A stretch of DNA of 64,000 nt, taken from assembly GCA_023920165.1 (NCBI GenBank), contig CP089277.1:620001-684000 (forward strand). Reading direction: 5' to 3'. The position numbers and the translations under genes are program-made. How positions within the stretch are numbered: position 1 is the first letter of the stretch; the number at the start of each line of letters is the position of its first letter. This DNA comes from Curvularia clavata (Eukaryota). Of this stretch, positions 4,596-40,877 are shown piece by piece. Under the pieces are notes generated by a model that worked only from the letters and a program-made list of their open reading frames with translations, had not been told where the DNA came from and ran no database searches.

Positions 4596-7500
4596 TTACT
4601 TCCTCGTACTGTCCCCATTACCACTTCCACCATTGCCGCCATTTGTGCCACCAAGCAAACATGTCTTCGCGCTTTCGAGCTCCGCCACAACTCTCTCCTC
4701 CAAGTCACTCAGCGCGTCCTCTCCCTTGCCTTTAACACGATTCAGCATCTCCAGCTCCTTTTCGTCAACCGCAACCAGACGCTCTCTCAGTGCGCTCTTC
4801 CGAGATAGCCAACTCTCCACATCCTCTTTGACAGCATCCCTTTCCCACTCCAGAAGCGCTACTTCATTAGCTTGGATACCTAGCTTAGGACCTTGCTTGC
4901 GCACGTTCTCCAGAATAGCGGCGATGAGTGCGAGACTGTGTATTTCAGAGGCTACAGAAAGCGTAATCTTATTTGTAGCAGCCGAAAAGCGAGACGATGA
5001 GCTTGTTGAATTGATGCTTGATACCGAGCGGGCGAGTTGTTCAGGGAATTGATTGAGGAAGGAGGAGATTTCCGCAGCAATTGGGGGCCCGACAGATAAG
5101 AGGAGGTTGAGGCAGAGGGGAAGGATACCCTTGGTCCAGACAGAGTACATGCGGCTTGGATTGTCAAATGGACCGGTGCCGTTGACGCGACGGTAGTAGT
5201 TCATAATGTTCGCTGTGTTGAGTTGACTAAGAATGCCCTCGACGGCCATGGTCTCGGCTAGGGCTTGGATGCTGGAGAGCGACAACAGGAAGAGGATGCT
5301 TAGCTCGCCGTAGATTGGATCGTCTACACCATTGTGTGATATTGCGAGGCGATCAGCCCAGGAGAATAGACTGGTGGCGTAGCGCACAGTGTTGTTGTTT
5401 GCAAAGAGGAGCGCTGCTTGTTGTTGCCACTTGGACATCTCCGGTATCGCAATGATGCGTTGTAGCAGCGCGGTGAGGAGTGCAAAATCGGATGGTGAGA
5501 CGGACAAGGGTTCAGCGTGCAGCTGCGTGGCTAAGCTGCGGAAACCTTTGGCTACCGTGTCGGTTAGGATTTCAAGGAGCTGTGTAGAAATGGGCTCTGT
5601 GTAACTGTTGTGGCTGGCCGGCATGGTGCCACGGAAGCTTGAGCGAAATGAGGCATCCTCAGACTGGTCAGTGTCCTCGATGAGATGGAAATGAAGAGCA
5701 AGGTAGAGGATGCGGAGTAAGGACCGGTAATAATGAACCGAGTCACTAGAGAAGACATTGTCGAAATCCGGAGTCGAGGCACGGATGGCGCTCCATATTG
5801 GTGCAAGCAATTGGCGCGCCTCTGTGGTCCGGACATTGGCCTCTACCAACTTCTTCAACAGCGCAAACGCCAGATCCGCTCGCACGACCATAAGCTGACC
5901 GAATAATGCCTCTGGCAGGTTTGACTGTGTGTTGGCAGTCATGCACTTGTGGACAACACCGATTAGAACCTTGACAATTCGTTCGTCCTTGGCTACGACC
6001 TGGCTTAGCTCGAGAGTCAACAGCTTCCAGCCATGGAGTAACAAGACCTGAGACTCTACAAGTCCTAGATTGTAGTTGGCCTTTTCGACTTCAGATGCGA
6101 AACCGGTGCCCTCTCTAGGGCCAGCCCACTTGCTGTTGAAACTCAGGAGTTGCTGGGCAAGGTCAATGTCATAGAAGAATGCTCGTCCAAAGGTTTCAGG
6201 ATACAACGTGGTCCGCTTGAGATTCCCCAAAGAGACACCAGGGTACTGCTTCTCCAAGTTTTGCTTCAAGTATCCATGCAACGATGTACTGTAAGATGGC
6301 AGCTCCAAGGCAGTGTCTTGCAAGTATGTCAAACTGGGGACAATGTCTTTCAGTACGGTGACATCGCCGACCTGTCGTGAGTGGTGAAGGTACATAGCAA
6401 TGACCTCACAGGCCAGAGATGCGAATTTGTTTTGGAACGAGCGCTCCAGCGTCTCTTCATTACTGCTCATGCGCGGTTGTTTGGGCTGCTTTGCCATCCA
6501 TTTCAAAAACGTCAGAAGTTTTTGAATCAGATCTTTACGTTGTCGCAAATCCCCCATTGCCCAAGACCAATTGTTTTGCGCCGAAGACACGAACTCGAGC
6601 ATGGCCGTAAACAGTGGCCATGAGATGCCAGCAGGTTCCTTCTCCGGAAGCGCCATATTGCAAAGCGCATCGAAGGCACGTGTGAGTAGGGCTTTGTTCC
6701 TTGAGTCCGGCGCTGCGTTTGCTTTGCTTCGCATGGTCTCTCGTGGAGTGTTTCCAGTAAGCAGATACAGAGAGAACCACTGCTGCTTGCATGTTACAAC
6801 AGCTGATAGCAAGTTCCACACATTCCTTTGGATATCCACAATCTTCAGCGGCTCGTCTAGTTGAGAAAGGACGCTGAGGAAGTTCTTTGCAGTACGGGGC
6901 CCCAGATGACCCAGCAACGAAGGCGGTTCTCGCTGCTCAGTGTTTCTACGGGCAGCCTGTTTAGCATCCACGTCGGCCACTTCTGGCTCTTCTTGGGTAG
7001 TAAGACGGACCGCGCCACGGACCAAAGCCTCAAGCAACAGTACGACCTGAGATTTCCACTTGTCGCTGGTGGCGTATAGCCGGGCTAGTAATGGTGTAGC
7101 TTTGAAGAGCTGTTGCTCCAGGTGAGTCCAAGGTTTGTTGAGTAGCATGGCAATTCGGACAAGGAGATCAGCAAAAGCCAGGGTGCTTTGGGTCTGTTGT
7201 GTCCATAGTGCACCTGAAGTTGTGAGCAATGTGTTATCGTTGGGGCTGACTCCGATGATCAAAGATGTCATCAGTGGGTTCGTAGGTAGGCCGGTGTCAG
7301 AGCCAGCGAGGTATAGCTGGGTGAGGTATTCGGCAATGGGCGCAATCGCCTTTGTGAGCTTAGTGGACAGCTTCGGTGCATCATCTACGCTGTACGCGAG
7401 GCTCAATATCGTGGTAAAGACCTCGCAAATGGCAGTATTGATCTCGGGGCGGTGATCAGGCTGTGAGTACTTCCAACTAAGTGAGTTTTCATATATGCTG

Positions 7501-36311: not shown

Positions 36312-37080
36312 GGTGGTGGGCATGGACGCAGTGAGTGGAGTGAAGTTTGTTGGTTAGGGGATTGCAGCCCCGGGCGGAGTATATGTATTACGGCACCCCA
36401 CGTCCAGATATCGTCCGTGAGAGGCACAGCCCTGCATTAGGCGGCTACTATCGTCGATTACGGTCGGACTTCCGAATCGCAGGTTGGCACGAGGGTACCG
36501 AAACGCATCTGAGCCACAATGATGCCAAAGAGTAAGGGAATCTGACAGGCAGTGCAGGGCAACGACGTCGAGATTGCGATATCGTAGATGACGCAAACGA
36601 ATGGCCGCTCTCCAGTCGCAGTCGCGTGGACCCTGCATTGGGCGCGCTTGGACCCCCGAAGCAGTTGCGGCGACGCGTCTGGCCTGGCCAAACTCAACTC
36701 GTCTCTCACCTTCACTCGCTGATTGGCTTTGCCATCGTCACAAAGTGGGCCTGCTTACTGCAATCAACTTCACTCTGGGATATTCTTTGCTACAAACTTA
36801 TAGACTTTCTGTTTCTCTCTTCTTCTCCACCAAAGGACCTCGCTGGCCGCCGAACCTCAATCGGAAGCCATTGCCGATTGAGGGTCATACTGAGCAGAGA
36901 CAGTATCTATCAAGCCATCAAGTCGTCGAGCGACCAAGCACTAGCTGAGCTCGAGCGAGTGTTCATCAAGTGGCTAGCTGAGCGCAAACTTAACCAACCA
37001 AGGCAGTATGTTGTACACCATCTGCACTTGCACAAGTGTGCATTTACGGTGAATCAAACTAATGCCCAACGCTTGCAGAA

Positions 37081-38964
37081 ATGTGGCCAGCGTCCGGACG
37101 TGTAAGCTTTGCAGAGGTACCATGCCCTCAAGCTCTATCTTGCACACTTCCCAATTGTCTCTTTCGCCATCAAGCACCACCCCCTCAACCTCCAACAACA
37201 ACTGCGGCACGTGACCCTAAAACAATTGCAAAGCCCAATGCTATTGTAAATGTGCAGGCGTCCCAGGCGTCTGGCCTACCAGGTCTAGAGTCTGTCCAAA
37301 CTACTGGGTCGAGACCTGAGTCGAGAATGCTTGCTGCACCAAGGGCTCCCACTACGTCAAAGACTTCGACTGCATCGAAGACATCTACCGCACTGCAATC
37401 ATCTTTACCCAATTCGGCAACAGCCAAGCCCATAGTTAATTCTGACAAACCAGTTTCTTTGACGCCGAAACCTCTCCAAAAGGCTCCTGCAGGCTTCCCT
37501 AGGCGAGTGGTACTTTTACGGGCACTACATGCGGCTCTAAAAGTCCACAACGATAAGATTAGCAAAGCGAAGGATCCTGATATAAAGGCCCTTCACCTCA
37601 ACGAAAACCAGCTGAATCAGTTAGCAATCGATGAGGAAATAGAGATTGCCACATCGCGTCCATCCGTTTACGAAAACATACTAAAACAGCGGCTAGTAAA
37701 GCTCAAGAGCATGCGGCCAGAAGAATGGGTCAAGGAGAGGCGAGCAGCCATAGCGCCCGATGTAGCGCCCGATGACAAAGAAATTAAGACAGGCTTGAGC
37801 CCAGAAGACGAAGTCACCTACGTCCGCACAATCATGTGCGATCTGGACGATCTGGCTGCTTGTAAATATATCACTCGTTTACCAAGCGACGCAGAGGTGA
37901 ATGAGGCCCGTTTGACCCTCCATGCTGCCGCTGGATGGGAAATGTGTGACCGCTGCTCCACGCGTTTTCAGGTCTTTCCAGACCGAAACCAAGAAGGCAA
38001 ACTCACGACTGGTGGAGAGTGCAAGTTTCATTGGGGAAGACGCCACGGTCACGACAAGTATGACTGCTGTGGCCGAAACATGCACGACGCACACTGCGCC
38101 CGGCAAGACACTCATGTTTTCAGCCACAAAGACCCAAACAGCCTGTCGGTCGTCATGCCGTTTATTCACACACCCCCGAATGACAGTGTTCCGAGATCTT
38201 CGGCTGTGTCCTGTGATTGCGAGATGGGCTACACTACCAGGGGTTTCGAGATGCTCCGTCTTACCGTTCTATCATGGCCGCAGCATGAGCCGCTTATCGA
38301 CGTCCTCGTTCGTCCGTTTGGCACGATACTGGATTTCAATACCCGCTTCTCTGGTGTTACAAAAGACCAGTTCGTCAACGCCAAGGCATATGACCCGGCA
38401 AACCCTCGGCCAGTAGGCAAAGAACTACGTATTGTTGAATCGCCGTATGTAGCACGCGAGCTCTTCCTCTCGCATGTCTCACCCGAGACTCCCATTATAG
38501 GACATGGGCTTGAGAACGACCTCAAGGTTCTCCGTCTCATCCATCCAACCATTGTCGATACCGCCATTCTCTATAAGACAAGGAGACCCCTGCCTTTTCG
38601 TCTCAAACTGCGAGACCTCGCAAAACAAAATCTCGACCAAGATATTCAGCAGGCAGGCGAGGCTGGCCATGACAGCCATGAAGATTCCCGTGCAGCAGGC
38701 GAGTTGGTGAGACTCAAGGTCAAGAAACTGTGGGCAAAAGACAAGGAAGCTGGATTCGAGATCAGAGACGGTGCTGTGTGCCCGCCCTTGCCGACTTTGG
38801 ACCCTGGACCACCGCGTGGGTCTGGTCAACGACAGCAGCCACCGGTCGCTGACACGCGCTCAAAGGCCCCAACGGCCAACATGACAGGATCCACCAAGAG
38901 GAAGCTGGACGAGGACGGCGATGCCACTGAGCTGCCGGCCAAAAAGCCGGTGCAGAGGCCTTGA
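37081..38964 (+). CDS. REX3: RNA exonuclease 3 (DEDDh)
   Basis: N-terminal CP-C-C-H zinc motif, CDRCSTRFQVFP, CKFHWG, DCEMGYT, IGHGLENDL, IVDTA and HDSHED. Probable 5'-UTR intron 37006-37078. Confidence 0.92.
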   Translation: MWPASGRVSFAEVPCPQALSCTLPNCLFRHQAPPPQPPTTTAARDPKTIAKPNAIVNVQASQASGLPGLESVQTTGSRPESRMLAAPRAPTTSKTSTASKTSTALQSSLPNSATAKPIVNSDKPVSLTPKPLQKAPAGFPRRVVLLRALHAALKVHNDKISKAKDPDIKALHLNENQLNQLAIDEEIEIATSRPSVYENILKQRLVKLKSMRPEEWVKERRAAIAPDVAPDDKEIKTGLSPEDEVTYVRTIMCDLDDLAACKYITRLPSDAEVNEARLTLHAAAGWEMCDRCSTRFQVFPDRNQEGKLTTGGECKFHWGRRHGHDKYDCCGRNMHDAHCARQDTHVFSHKDPNSLSVVMPFIHTPPNDSVPRSSAVSCDCEMGYTTRGFEMLRLTVLSWPQHEPLIDVLVRPFGTILDFNTRFSGVTKDQFVNAKAYDPANPRPVGKELRIVESPYVARELFLSHVSPETPIIGHGLENDLKVLRLIHPTIVDTAILYKTRRPLPFRLKLRDLAKQNLDQDIQQAGEAGHDSHEDSRAAGELVRLKVKKLWAKDKEAGFEIRDGAVCPPLPTLDPGPPRGSGQRQQPPVADTRSKAPTANMTGSTKRKLDEDGDATELPAKKPVQRP

Positions 38965-39032
38965 AAAAAAGGAGATGATTTGTAAGAGTCGGAATTTGGT
39001 CCAGGAATTTTCATGTGTGACGCTGCTTACGC

Positions 39033-39203
39033 GGTCTTTATACATTTAGCATAGCCATGGGGTTTGGGTCTTTGAACTGCTTTTGCGGGAGGTCTTTGTA
39101 CGTTTAGCATAGCGACGGGGTCTTTCAGTCTTTCGACATCTTAGTCTCTTGATTTTACGGTCTTTCAATCTTTTTCGCACGTTTAGCATAGCGATGGGGT
39201 CTT
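39033..39203 (+). repeat. Three imperfect direct copies of ~(GGTCTTT)..C(A/G)TTTAGCATAGC(C/G)A(T/C)GGGGT in the REX3 3' region
   Basis: GCATAGC cores at 39049, 39107 and 39186, interspersed with several GGTCTTT/GTCTTT words. Confidence 0.8.
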
Positions 39204-39466
39204 CTCGGTTTTTTAGCCTTTTGGTCTTTGAAATGCACAGCTTAACTATACGTATTGAGTGTTTACGTATGCACTGTACGCCTATGTCCCCTTTTTACCT
39301 GTATAACTCTGTCTAATCCGTGCATGACATCTTGGTGATACCTTCGTTTGCTGCGTGCGCCGATACCTGTGCGCTAGCACTGTTTGCTTCCACTCACCCA
39401 AGTATAATGCTGGGTTTAGCTAATATCCTGTGATAGTATACATACCTCAATATTCCCTATCCTTCC

Positions 39467-39707
39467 ATCAATCAATCCTCACTTGTCTCAGTGGTCGGGT
39501 GGGCTTCTAGCACAGGGGCACTCGGTGGGTACCAAACCCCCCTCCCCCCCAAACATTCGAACTGCTATTGAGATTATAGGATAATAACCCACTCAGTGTC
39601 CCAGAGTAATGGGGTTGCTAAGCTAGAAGGGCAGCCGTCCAAAGTTCGAATCCGGACGGTTGCTGGAGCAACAAACGCTGAGATGAGTGAGAATTGATTG
39701 ATTTTTT
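39467..39707 (+). ncRNA. Candidate RNA polymerase III-transcribed structured ncRNA (~236 nt), family not recognised
   Basis: 27-bp terminal stem 39467-39493/39676-39702. A box TGGTCGGGTGG at 39492-39502 and B box GTTCGAATCC at 39644-39653. Three internal helices. T6 at 39702-39707 and T8 at 39711-39718. Confidence 0.75.
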
Positions 39708-39718
39708 GCCTTTTTTTT
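39702..39718 (+). terminator. Oligo-T Pol III terminator (T6 followed by T8)
   Basis: TTTTTT-GCC-TTTTTTTT immediately after the 3' arm of the terminal stem. Confidence 0.65.
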
Positions 39719-39942
39719 AACCGCAGTTTGATTTCGTCCTTTCTTCCCCCCAGCTTGAGCTACTTCCGAATGGTGAGCTTAAAGGGAGTGATACTTGTTT
39801 GGAGCTACAGACAGCAGCATGATTGTAGTGCTTGACGTATCCACGTCCTCTTGGTTGTCCATCTAGACCAATCATCCTCTGACGCCTTGTCCGCAAAACG
39901 TCTCCTCCATCAGTTTTATTGCTTCCAAGTTCTATCCCCCCC

Positions 39943-40364
39943 TCACCCAACCATACTCACGTCTAGCCCTTGCACGCCCTCGAGTCCTTCCTTGGTAGGC
40001 TCATACACGACGTCGGTATCTAGCTCCTTCATCACCGCAATCACGACACCCGCGCTCTCCACAAACCCATTGACCGCCACACGCAACATGCGGTTCGTCG
40101 TCGCCGCATAGTCTACCCTTAGCACAGATTGCTCTGTCGAGTCTGTGGGTGTAGCGAGTGTGAAGCGGCGGCGTACGAGGGGCGAGAGCTCCGCGTCAAC
40201 GGAGAGGGAGCGTTGTGCTGTTTGCGCGAGGTGTGCGGTTGGGAAGGGGATGTGAAGGGTGCTGGATGGGAGTTAGTGTACTGTTTAGTGTAGAGTGGGG
40301 TTTAGGGCTGAATGTACAGGGTGCAGGGGAAGTCTTCTGGCTTCCAGTCTTGTGTGGTTGCCAT
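39943..40364 (-). CDS. PCC1: KEOPS/EKC complex subunit Pcc1 (LAGE3 family)
   Basis: MATTQDWKPEDFPCTL, then intron 40262-40317, then TLHIPFPTAHLAQTAQRSLSVDAELSPLVRRRFT...LRVDYAATTNRMLRVAVNGF. Confidence 0.88.
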
Positions 40365-40877
40365 TGCGAATGGGCTGCGCGAGCACGGCAGGGTATGGAG
40401 ATGTGGGTTTAACAATCTCCAGAAATGAAGAGAAGACTTTGGCTGGATGTATGAGAATACTCAAAAGTTAAATCCTCGGACCAAGTATTGCAAGTGACAT
40501 GCGACTCTCGAGCCGCCGCCGACGTCGCCGCCCTAAACTTTGCCATGAGGCTTAAATCGCCAAAATGTGGGGGAGGGGCACCGCGTTTCTGCGCTGTCCG
40601 CAACGAGCATAGCGCCGATGCGCAACGCGCTATGGCCCGTCTGGTACCTTATTCGAAAGCGTCATACATCATCATTATCGAGTAGTTGTAGGGTACCATA
40701 ATGCGTCATGGTTCGTTCGCTAGTGATGTCGTATAGCTCGGTTCTGCTCTTGTCTCTCTCACCTTGCTTTCGCCAGCCTTGACGAGCTTTACTTTTTTTC
40801 TGAGGAATTGAACAATTAATCTACAACAAAACCAAAGACATCGCCTATAAACCAGCTGGAGAGCTCTAACACGCAAC

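What the first reader, a model, noticed from the sequence alone, without database searches (positions are those of the whole stretch)
39467..39718. Unrecognised Pol III-type structured ncRNA with four helices and a possible pseudoknot
Seen directly are four helices. P1 is 39467-39493/39676-39702 (27 positions, 3 G-U pairs, 1 mismatch). P2 is CTTCTAGC/GCTAGAAG at 39504-39511/39622-39629 (perfect). P3 is 39515-39530/39587-39602 (16 positions, 2 G-U, 1 mismatch). P4 is 39631-39640/39654-39663 (10 bp, 1 G-U), with a perfect B box GTTCGAATCC in and beside its loop. An A-box-like TGGTCGGGTGG follows P1, T6 and T8 runs follow the 3' arm, and an AT-rich GTATACATA lies ~30 nt upstream. Six of the eight non-Watson-Crick positions are G-U on the + strand (A-C on the - strand), which points to selection on a + strand RNA rather than a DNA inverted repeat. 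Established: A box, B box and oligo-T make up the type-2 Pol III architecture. It is not a cloverleaf tRNA, and I see no 5S, U6 or SRP hallmarks. Inference: a standalone, little-characterised or undescribed fungal ncRNA gene.
Basis: partly seen in the sequence, partly recalled or inferred. Interest (0 to 1): 0.9.

Follow-up and report, generated by a model that had tools for sequence, protein, structure and literature searches.

The report
Low-copy Pol III-like hairpin repeat family
A roughly 280-base unit carrying all the signals of an RNA polymerase III gene and a long end-to-end stem lies between two fungal genes, but it is one of a small dispersed family and not a unique gene, and its RNA product is not yet shown.

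Summary
The sequence observation holds. All four helices sit at the stated coordinates with the stated pair counts. There is a perfect GTTCGAATCC in the P4 loop, two T-runs directly after P1, and a TATA-like box about 30 nt upstream. Only P1, P4 with its B box, and the T-runs exceed chance. The interior 39494-39675 folds no better than shuffles.

No Rfam family and no tRNA matches. A better A box, TGTCTCAGTGG, lies at 39484-39494.

The 'standalone, single-copy' reading fails. Laid contigs show five to seven other genomic copies in a close relative and four in RNA contigs of the same species. These copies share 39442-39514 and 39585-39718 at 80-90% identity, and their centres are unalignable. 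The element also lies inside an RNA contig continuous with the spliced mRNA of the Pcc1-like gene on the opposite strand, so no discrete Pol III transcript is shown.

Best reading (0.45): a lineage-restricted, low-copy family of Pol III type-2 units encoding a ~240-nt panhandle RNA.

Main rival (0.35): a fossil SINE- or MITE-like repeat in a 3' UTR.

No target-site duplication was found. Covariation could not be tested.

The parts
39436..39444 (+). TATA-like box GTATACATA, about 23-31 nt upstream of the P1 start
   Evidence: Read. In the related haplotype seen in X4, X19 and X15, 39441 is T, giving GTATATATA (table 3). One paralogue's flank ends ...TGTATATCC just before its aligned part (table 7).
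39442..39718 (+). Repeated unit: the extent of similarity to the other genomic copies
   Evidence: tables 7 and 8. Non-syntenic contigs begin to match at 39442, 39448 and 39452 and stop at 39717/39718, with unlike sequence beyond.
39467..39493 (+). P1 5' arm
   Evidence: 27 positions: 23 Watson-Crick, 3 G-U, 1 C-A. Pair probability 0.93.
39484..39494 (+). Best A-box match TGTCTCAGTGG (10 of 11 to TRGCNNAGTGG, a consensus recalled from memory), +18 to +28 from the P1 start
Evidence: There are 9 such one-mismatch matches on + and 16 on - in the 64 kb.
39504..39511 (+). P2 5' arm
   Evidence: 8 of 8 Watson-Crick. Pair probability only 0.23 on +.
39515..39530 (+). P3 5' arm
   Evidence: Pair probability 0.18. 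It lies in the part that differs among copies.
39531..39586 (+). Variable centre (apical region of P3), with a C-rich tract at 39537-39550
   Evidence: 5 of the 7 listed orthologue differences inside the element fall here. Paralogues carry other sequence of other length, for example 187 letters in place of 145.
39587..39602 (+). P3 3' arm
39622..39629 (+). P2 3' arm
39631..39663 (+). P4 hairpin (10 bp) with a 13-nt loop
   Evidence: pair probability 0.87 on +. Paralogues carry 1- and 7-nt deletions in its 5' arm (table 4).
39644..39653 (+). B box GTTCGAATCC in and beside the P4 loop
   Evidence: the only occurrence in the window..
39676..39702 (+). P1 3' arm
39702..39718 (+). T7 (39702-39708), GCC, T8 (39711-39718): candidate Pol III terminators
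   Evidence: The three paralogue 3' ends visible as loose ends also carry runs of six to eight T at this place (table 7).
39943..40563 (-). Pcc1-like gene with a 56-nt intron (40262-40317). Its spliced RNA contig continues through the element
   Evidence: Pfam PF09341, E 1.1e-21. Spliced joint 40261>40318, and record 24 covers 39289-40261 plus 40318-40563.

Best explanation
The element is one member of a small, dispersed, lineage-restricted family of RNA polymerase III type-2 transcription units on the + strand.

Inferred mechanism:
- TFIIIC binds the A box (39484-39494) and the B box (39644-39653).
- TFIIIB sits on the TATA-like box (39436-39444).
- Pol III starts near 39467 and stops in the T7 or T8 run (39702-39718).
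- The product is a ~236-250-nt RNA. Its first and last 27 nt pair into a long terminal stem (P1) that ends in a 3' oligo-U tail.
- A T-loop-like hairpin (P4) and a variable centre sit inside.

This is the 'panhandle' design of vault and Y RNAs, with conserved paired ends, internal promoter boxes and a free centre. The RNA would most plausibly act as a protein-bound scaffold. Alternatively, through its long open-ended stem with a 3' overhang, it could be a Dicer substrate, like the Pol III-made milRNA precursors of Neurospora.

Shown: the sequence signals, the P1 and P4 helices, the family, and its pattern of conservation. Inferred: transcription by Pol III, the ends of the RNA, and any function.
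For: 1. All signals lie on one strand in the right order. The TATA-like box is about 23-31 nt before P1. The A box matches 10 of 11 at +18. The B box is perfect and is the only one in 64 kb. Two of the window's 13 runs of T>=6 fall within 17 nt after P1.
2. Similarity among copies runs from 39442 to 39717/8. That span covers the promoter-proximal 25 nt and the T-runs and goes no further (tables 7, 8). P1 is therefore not at the ends of the repeated unit, as a transposon's terminal inverted repeat would be.
3. The 3 of 3 paralogue 3' ends visible as loose ends keep a T6-T8 run right after a diverged P1 3' arm (table 7).
4. Conservation is mosaic. The end modules 39442-39514 and 39585-39718 are 80-90% alike among copies, while the centres are unalignable and differ in length (tables 5, 8).
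5. Among orthologous contigs, 0 of the 7 listed differences inside 39467-39702 fall in the 122 helix positions of 236. If placement were uniform this gives 0.483^7 = 0.006. The table lists 15 of the 17 differences of X4 record 24, so two are unplaced (table 3).
6. 39441 C>T in the relatives makes a better TATA box.
7. A contig of another organism has the Pcc1 coding part about 87% identical (40 other letters in 318). It again matches the element's 3' end up to 39706, while the neighbouring stretches 39707-39810 and 39853-39942 are skipped (tables 5, 8).
8. Each named helix is more stable on the + strand: P1 -36.6 against -33.3, P3 -25.7 against -21.5, P4 -18.1 against -13.8 kcal/mol.
9. No target-site duplication of 3 nt or more was found at the P1 bounds or the unit bounds.
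Against: 1. No discrete transcript is shown. X4 record 24 shows itself to be RNA by the spliced joint 40261>40318. It bridges from the Pcc1-like coding region through the whole element to 39289, which is 178 nt beyond the proposed start. At least part of the RNA here therefore does not come from the proposed promoter. It may be the Pcc1 3' UTR, antisense to the proposed RNA. Pol II running through also argues against a strongly occupied Pol III gene. Paralogue RNA contigs likewise run more than 255 letters beyond the T-runs (X4 and X19 loose ends at 39717).
2. The interior folds no better than shuffles. P2 and P3 are minor in the ensemble. Both strands reach the same minimum free energy.
3. 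One paralogue (X15 record 3 / X4 record 26) has 1-nt deletions at 39489 and 39491, inside the A box (table 4).
4. The A-to-B box distance of about 150 nt is long for TFIIIC (recalled knowledge).
5. Sharp, shared limits of similarity among dispersed copies are also the mark of a mobile element.
6. No relative was found outside close kin, and covariation could not be tested.
Confidence: 0.45

Rival explanations
1. A fossil non-autonomous mobile element lying in the 3' UTR of the Pcc1-like gene. It would be either a SINE-like retroposon with a Pol III head, or a MITE or foldback element whose inverted repeat is P1. It would have no function of its own today. Any hairpin RNA it forms would be a by-product of the host mRNA.
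For: - It is dispersed, with 5-7 further copies in the genome of organism F and 4 in RNA contigs of organism A.
- The limits of similarity are shared and sharp.
- It has a 25-27-nt inverted repeat at 85-88% match enclosing about 180 nt, a typical MITE size.
- It lies in a transcribed gene-end region and is bridged by the Pcc1 RNA contig.
- Without the 277-nt unit, the stretch from the Pcc1 stop to 39289 would be of more ordinary length.
- Conserved ends with a variable centre is usual for MITE families (recalled).
- The interior structure is not better than chance.
Against: - No target-site duplication at either candidate boundary.
- P1 lies 25 nt and 16 nt inside the limits of the repeated unit, so it is not terminal.
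- There is no A-rich, simple-repeat or LINE-like 3' tail. The unit ends in T-runs on the promoter strand.
- The head shows no likeness to tRNA, 5S or 7SL.
- The joint presence of the TATA box, A box, perfect B box and double T-run on one strand is improbable for a DNA transposon by chance.
- The element is present at this site in every contig that covers it. No contig skips it (table 5).
- None of the 13 AfuSINE sequences printed in PMC5063351, Table 1, resembles it by eye.
Confidence: 0.35
2. A structured cis element of the Pcc1-like mRNA, read on the - strand. It would be a long double-stranded hairpin in the 3' UTR that affects mRNA stability, 3'-end choice or small-RNA production. The Pol III-like motifs would be incidental.
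For: - The RNA contig is continuous from the spliced coding region across the element.
- The - strand folds as well as the + strand (-95.6 kcal/mol, z -4.83).
- The element's 3' part is kept downstream of Pcc1 in a more distant organism.
Against: - The same unit occurs at several unrelated loci, so it is not specific to Pcc1.
- The named helices are weaker on the - strand.
- The motif set is strand-consistent for +.
- Contigs cannot tell the strand or the ends of the RNA (heading text).
Confidence: 0.12
3. A chance inverted repeat and chance motifs in intergenic DNA.
For: P2 and P3 are within chance. One-mismatch A-box matches are common, 25 in the window on both strands.
Against: - P1 is expected 0.00 times in shuffles.
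- The whole-element fold has z = -6.46.
- The unit recurs at other loci and in other organisms.
Confidence: 0.03

Closest known systems
Vault RNAs and Y RNAs (Pol III 'panhandle' small RNAs of animals; features recalled from memory, not from a call)
   Same: They share a Pol III terminator directly after a long stem formed by the 5' and 3' ends, and a 3' oligo-U tail. Vault RNA also has internal A and B boxes. Both have conserved ends with a variable centre and form small paralogue families.
   Different: This element is two to three times longer. Neither the Rfam Vault nor the Y_RNA model matches, nor any of the 4227 families, even at E<=10 over 39200-40000. The partner proteins (major vault protein, Ro60) were not looked for and are not known to me from such fungi. 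The resemblance is of design, not of descent.
tRNA-derived SINEs, e.g. AfuSINE2 of Aspergillus fumigatus (PMC5063351; abstract and section 14 with Table 1 read)
   Same: Short, dispersed and low-copy, with internal Pol III A and B boxes. Some copies are transcribed and lie in gene-rich regions.
   Different: No tRNA-like head. No target-site duplication. No A-rich or repeat tail. T-runs and about 25 nt of upstream sequence belong to the unit. No printed AfuSINE resembles it by eye.
MITEs of filamentous fungi, e.g. mimp of Fusarium (recalled from memory)
   Same: About 200-280 bp with a ~27-bp inverted repeat, hairpin-forming, sitting near or in gene ends, with conserved ends and a variable interior.
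   Different: The inverted repeat is not at the ends of the repeated unit. No TA or other duplication flanks it. It carries strand-consistent Pol III signals.
Pol III-transcribed milRNA precursors of Neurospora crassa (PMC3547838; abstract read)
   Same: A filamentous ascomycete uses Pol III to make hairpin RNAs that are processed into small RNAs. One of them is linked to a tRNA-like moiety.
   Different: No small-RNA data are available here. [quoted passage not shown] No sequence relation was tested.
tRNA genes
   Same: A box, B box (T-loop sequence GTTCGAATC) and an oligo-T terminator.
   Different: There is no cloverleaf. ARAGORN finds none at default or 90% thresholds, with or without introns. 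Rfam tRNA gives no hit. The bases beside the B box cannot form a 5-bp T stem, as read.

Membership tests
Pol III type-2 transcription unit | Internal A box (TRGCNNAGTGG) near the start | tested here: met
   TGTCTCAGTGG at 39484-39494 matches 10 of 11. The consensus is recalled. One-mismatch matches are not rare, 25 in 128 kb of both strands.
Pol III type-2 transcription unit | Internal B box (GGTTCGANNCC) | tested here: met
   AGTTCGAATCC at 39643-39653. The core GTTCGAATCC is unique in the window.
Pol III type-2 transcription unit | Oligo-T terminator on the same strand | tested here: met
   T7 at 39702 and T8 at 39711. The + strand of the 64 kb has 13 runs of T>=6.
Pol III type-2 transcription unit | Transcript made by Pol III, with defined 5' and 3' ends | not testable with these tools
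   Only contigs were available. They cannot show starts, ends or strand. The RNA contig runs beyond both proposed ends.
tRNA | Cloverleaf with T arm and acceptor stem | tested here: not met
   ARAGORN found 0 genes at default and 90% thresholds, with introns allowed. There is no Rfam tRNA hit at E<=10.
SINE | Head derived from tRNA, 5S or 7SL RNA | tested here: not met
   No Rfam match at E<=10 in 39200-40000.
SINE | Target-site duplications flanking the copy | tested here: not met
   No direct repeat of 3 nt or more within 3 nt of either candidate boundary pair. Only this one copy could be examined.
SINE | A-rich, simple-repeat or LINE-derived 3' tail | tested here: not met
   The unit ends TTTTTTGCCTTTTTTTT on the promoter strand.
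SINE | Dispersed multiple copies | tested here: met
   5 listed non-syntenic contigs, plus joints at two further depths, in X15. 4 in X4.
MITE | Terminal inverted repeats at the very ends of the mobile unit | tested here: not met
   Similarity among copies extends 25 nt before and 16 nt after P1 (tables 7, 8). These outer stretches are not inverted repeats of each other, as read.
MITE | Target-site duplication | tested here: not met
   A 2-nt 'AT' cannot be told from the end of the repeat itself.
MITE | Presence/absence polymorphism (empty sites) | tested here: inconclusive
   No contig skips the element in the 4 runs laid (table 5). The contigs that cover it come from close relatives, plus one partial contig of a more distant organism that has it.
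Vault RNA / Y RNA | Match to the family's covariance model | tested here: not met
   No hit at gathering score in the window or at E<=10 locally.
Vault RNA / Y RNA | Partner protein (MVP or Ro60) encoded by the organism | not testable with these tools
   No genome of this organism is held.
Structured ncRNA in general | Compensatory base changes in helices among homologues | not testable with these tools
   Paralogue sequences were seen only as piece coordinates and 30-letter loose ends. Orthologues show 0 changes in the helices.

The most novel reading that the evidence does not exclude
A previously undescribed family of Pol III-transcribed ~240-nt panhandle RNAs in a lineage of filamentous ascomycetes whose nearest named relatives are Dothideomycetes. 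There are several paralogues per genome. Each has its own terminal-stem sequence and variable centre but shares the promoter, the T-loop hairpin and the terminator modules. They would work either as scaffolds of an unknown RNP (a fungal counterpart of vault or Y RNAs) or as Pol III-made, Dicer-ready hairpins whose differing stems give different guide RNAs.
Probability: 0.3. Interest if true: 0.7.

Novelty: new member of a known kind. Interest (0 to 1): 0.45.

Why it matters
Outside yeasts, the list of Pol III products in fungi is short: tRNA, 5S, U6, SRP and RNase P RNAs, and a few milRNA precursors. A multi-copy panhandle RNA with conserved promoter and terminator modules would add a new class. 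It would be easy to test by northern blot, Pol III ChIP and small-RNA sequencing. If it is instead a fossil repeat, the case is a useful warning. A single-window reading can make a dispersed repeat in a 3' UTR look like a unique structured RNA gene. The decisive control is copy number and flanks, not the fold.

Tried and rejected
- Own genome: none is held, so copies, flanks and partner proteins could not be searched directly.
- The look-up of sequencing runs: no RNA holder listed. Kinds were guesses.
- Read laying:
  - X4 has no cover over about 39195-39288, between the two convergent gene contigs. The left ends of RNA contigs fall at 39289 (X4), 39410 (X3) and 39426 (X19). I draw no conclusion on RNA ends from these.
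  - Tables 3, 4 and 8 were cut (184, 27 and 50 rows not shown). Paralogue substitutions in P1-P4 could therefore not be read, and covariation could not be counted.
- Metagenome scan with a 20-nt family pattern: 0 matches. The same pattern in prokaryote genome contigs: 0.
- The search for related loci with the exonuclease C-terminal part returned 80 loci, the best at 43-46% identity. None holds the element by blastn or nhmmer, and none has a Pcc1 neighbour by tblastn. A scan of the 80 loci for a B box plus T-run plus long stem found nothing comparable. The next best scores were 12 against 22 for the window, and all four came from one weak motif. The tRNA tally in that script read 0 and may be a parsing fault.
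- Window-internal search for diverged copies: none.
- ARAGORN at the 80% threshold gives three weak calls, two on the other strand and none a credible tRNA. I treat them as noise.
- The Rfam hit ceN33 at 39774-39894 (15 bits against a gathering score of 75, E 3.5) is noise and lies outside the element.
- The search of earlier findings by sequence, genome, place and words: nothing.
- Literature:
  - Searches found no description of such a fungal element. Only listings were seen, apart from PMC5063351 (abstract and section 14 part 1), PMC3547838 (abstract and outline) and PMC9757828 (two passages).
  - I cannot say it is unpublished. Repbase and Dfam were not available.
- No covariance model was built, because only one full sequence was in hand.

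Full report
**What is in the sequence**

The region was read and the four helices were checked by script.
- P1 (39467-39493/39676-39702) has 23 Watson-Crick pairs, 3 G-U and one C-A.
- P2 (39504-39511/39622-39629) is 8 of 8 Watson-Crick.
- P3 (39515-39530/39587-39602) has 13 Watson-Crick, 2 G-U and one C-C.
- P4 (39631-39640/39654-39663) has 9 Watson-Crick and 1 G-U.

GTTCGAATCC at 39644-39653 is the only copy in the 64 kb. T7 and T8 runs start at 39702 and 39711. The + strand of the window has only 13 runs of T>=6 and two of T>=8. The TATA-like GTATACATA lies at 39436-39444.

I add one point. TGTCTCAGTGG at 39484-39494 matches the recalled A-box consensus TRGCNNAGTGG in 10 of 11 positions. 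It lies 18 nt after the P1 start, a normal distance from a Pol III start site.

**What exceeds chance**

The whole 39467-39702 folds far better than shuffles on both strands: z = -6.46 on + and -4.83 on -, with minimum free energies of -95.3 and -95.6 kcal/mol. This is due to P1. The interior 39494-39675 alone gives z = -0.71 on + and -1.17 on -.

In the + strand ensemble, P1 and P4 have pair probabilities of 0.93 and 0.87, but P2 and P3 have only 0.23 and 0.18. The four-helix model is still within 1.6 kcal/mol of the minimum when enforced. Each named helix is 3-4 kcal/mol more stable on + than on -.

The G-U argument is real but weak. Six transition-type positions favour +, one favours -, and one is a C-C. 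The one-sided binomial is 0.06.

**It is no known RNA**

- Rfam 15 gives nothing at gathering score in the window.
- At E<=10 over 39200-40000 it gives only a 15-bit ceN33 match outside the element.
- ARAGORN finds no tRNA at default or 90% thresholds, with or without introns.

**Surroundings**

The element lies in the ~1 kb between two convergent genes.
- One is a 633-codon open frame ending at 38964. Its relatives are named RNA exonuclease 1/3 (Rex3). The best named ones are Pleosporales, at only 45-54% identity. The fungus is therefore not an Aspergillus and has no close named relative in that search.
- The other is a Pcc1-family gene on the - strand, with its stop at 39943-39945 (Pfam PF09341, E 1.1e-21).

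**The key result: it is a family**

Four public contig sets were laid on 38400-40600 at 80% likeness or more.

X15 behaves as DNA. One 68-kb contig covers the locus, intron included, at about 97% identity. Besides it, five other contigs of 12-68 kb (records 2-6) match parts of the element only. Joints at two further depths suggest up to seven such copies. Summed depth over the element's ends is 3 to 5 single-copy equivalents above the flanks.

X4 shows itself to be RNA by a contig that joins 40261 to 40318, removing a 56-nt GT..AG intron of the - strand gene. It holds four further non-syntenic contigs with the element's ends (records 25-28). One of them is a 7.3-kb contig of mean depth 290.

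The copies share 39442-39514 and 39585-39718, with roughly 10-20% differences and small gaps. Between these modules they carry other sequence of other length, for example 187 letters in place of 145 and 75 in place of 71. Similarity begins at 39442-39452 and ends at 39717/39718, with unlike sequence outside.

The repeated unit thus includes about 25 nt before P1 and both T-runs. One paralogue's flank also shows a TATA-like ...TGTATATCC at the matching place. All three paralogue 3' ends that can be read as loose ends have a diverged P1 3' arm followed directly by six to eight T.

**Conservation at this locus**

The related haplotype is seen in X4, X19 and X15. Its seven listed differences inside 39467-39702 are at 39552, 39555, 39568, 39575, 39579, 39604 and 39606. 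All lie outside the 122 helix positions. Uniform placement would give this with p about 0.006. Two of the 17 differences of X4 record 24 are not listed, so their place is unknown.

Upstream, 39441 C>T turns the box into GTATATATA.

A contig of a more distant organism (X19 record 10) has the Pcc1 coding part with 40 other letters in 318. It matches again at about 39811-39852 and at the element's 3' end up to 39706, while the stretches between are skipped. The element, or at least its 3' module, therefore sits at the same place in a more distant relative and is better kept than most of its neighbourhood.

**Evidence against a free-standing gene**

- X4 record 24 bridges from the spliced Pcc1 coding region through the entire element down to 39289. 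X19 record 8 bridges 39426-40104.
- Contigs cannot tell strand or ends. Even so, RNA that covers 178 nt upstream of the proposed start cannot all come from the proposed promoter. The simplest source is the Pcc1 3' UTR, which would carry the element in antisense.
- Paralogue RNA contigs also run on for more than 255 letters past the T-runs.
- One paralogue has two 1-nt deletions inside the A box.
- No target-site duplication is present at the P1 bounds or at the unit bounds.
- No contig skips the element (table 5).

**Weighing**

A transposon whose inverted repeat is P1 does not fit, because P1 is not terminal in the repeated unit and no duplication flanks it.

A SINE does not fit well either. 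The head resembles no tRNA, 5S or 7SL RNA. There is no A-rich or LINE-like tail. The upstream 25 nt and the terminators belong to the unit.

Finding a TATA-like box, an A box, a perfect B box and two T-runs in order on one strand by chance in a 277-nt repeat is unlikely. Rates measured in this window are about 0.01-0.05 for the B box, about 0.01 for the A box in the first 60 nt, and about 0.004-0.02 for a T>=6 run at the end.

The mosaic of kept ends and lost centre, and the limits of similarity that coincide with promoter and terminator, are what old duplicates of a constrained Pol III gene would look like. They are also compatible with subfamilies of a mobile element.

I therefore put:
- 0.45 on a low-copy Pol III gene family encoding a panhandle RNA;
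- 0.35 on a fossil SINE- or MITE-like repeat in a 3' UTR;
- 0.12 on a - strand mRNA element;
- 0.03 on chance.

**Mechanism proposed (inferred)**

- TFIIIC binds the A and B boxes and TFIIIB binds the TATA-like box.
- Transcription starts near 39467 and terminates in T7 or T8.
- The RNA's ends form the 27-bp P1 with a 3' oligo-U tail.
- P4 presents a T-loop-like sequence, and the centre is free to vary.

This is the design of vault and Y RNAs (recalled from memory), not membership of those families. Their Rfam models do not match and the partner proteins could not be sought.

Alternatively, the open-ended long stem could be diced. Pol III makes the major milRNA precursors in Neurospora (PMC3547838, abstract).

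**Comparison with the literature seen**

The 13 AfuSINE sequences printed in PMC5063351 (Table 1) do not resemble the element by eye. They differ in having tRNA or 5S heads and target-site duplications. My four paper searches turned up no description of such an element. Repeat libraries (Repbase, Dfam) were not available, so I cannot claim it is unpublished.

**What remains open**

The decisive tests could not be run here:
- covariation among the copies;
- duplications and empty sites across all copies;
- the strand and ends of the RNA;
- Pol III occupancy.

Noticed in passing
window 39033-39236: There is a short array of imperfect direct repeats just downstream of the exonuclease gene's stop. 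It has three copies of a 31-nt unit (74-100% alike, spacing 58 and 79), interleaved with 15- and 18-nt repeats. One X19 contig joins 39034 to 39092, skipping 57 nt, so the copy number seems to vary among strains (table 5).
   Followed up: partly
window 40262-40317 (- strand): A 56-nt GT..AG intron of the Pcc1-like gene is removed in contigs of X4, X3 and X19. A second joint one base off (40260>40318, with one extra letter) is seen in X3 and X19. It is probably from other strains or species (tables 5, 5c).
   Followed up: partly
window 39915-39920 (- strand): A canonical AATAAA lies about 25 nt after the Pcc1-like stop codon. Yet an RNA contig continues 650 nt further, through the element. Which poly(A) site is used is open.
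   Followed up: no
window 39537-39551 and 40566-40578: The C-rich tract CCCCTCCCCCCCA inside the element's variable centre has a 13-nt, 92% complementary partner 1 kb away, near the 5' end of the Pcc1-like transcript contig (pair I2). It is probably chance.
   Followed up: no
window 37063-38964 (+): My Pfam-A scan found no family for the 633-aa exonuclease-like frame. Its homologues carry a precomputed PF28365 and are named RNA exonuclease 1/3. All named relatives are 54% identical or less, so the window's fungus seems to lack a close sequenced relative in that database.
   Followed up: partly
X4 record 25 (table 8): One paralogous copy of the element sits at 5001-5318 of a 7291-nt RNA contig whose mean depth (290) is about ten times that of the neighbouring gene contigs. 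What that highly covered contig encodes could not be seen.
   Followed up: no
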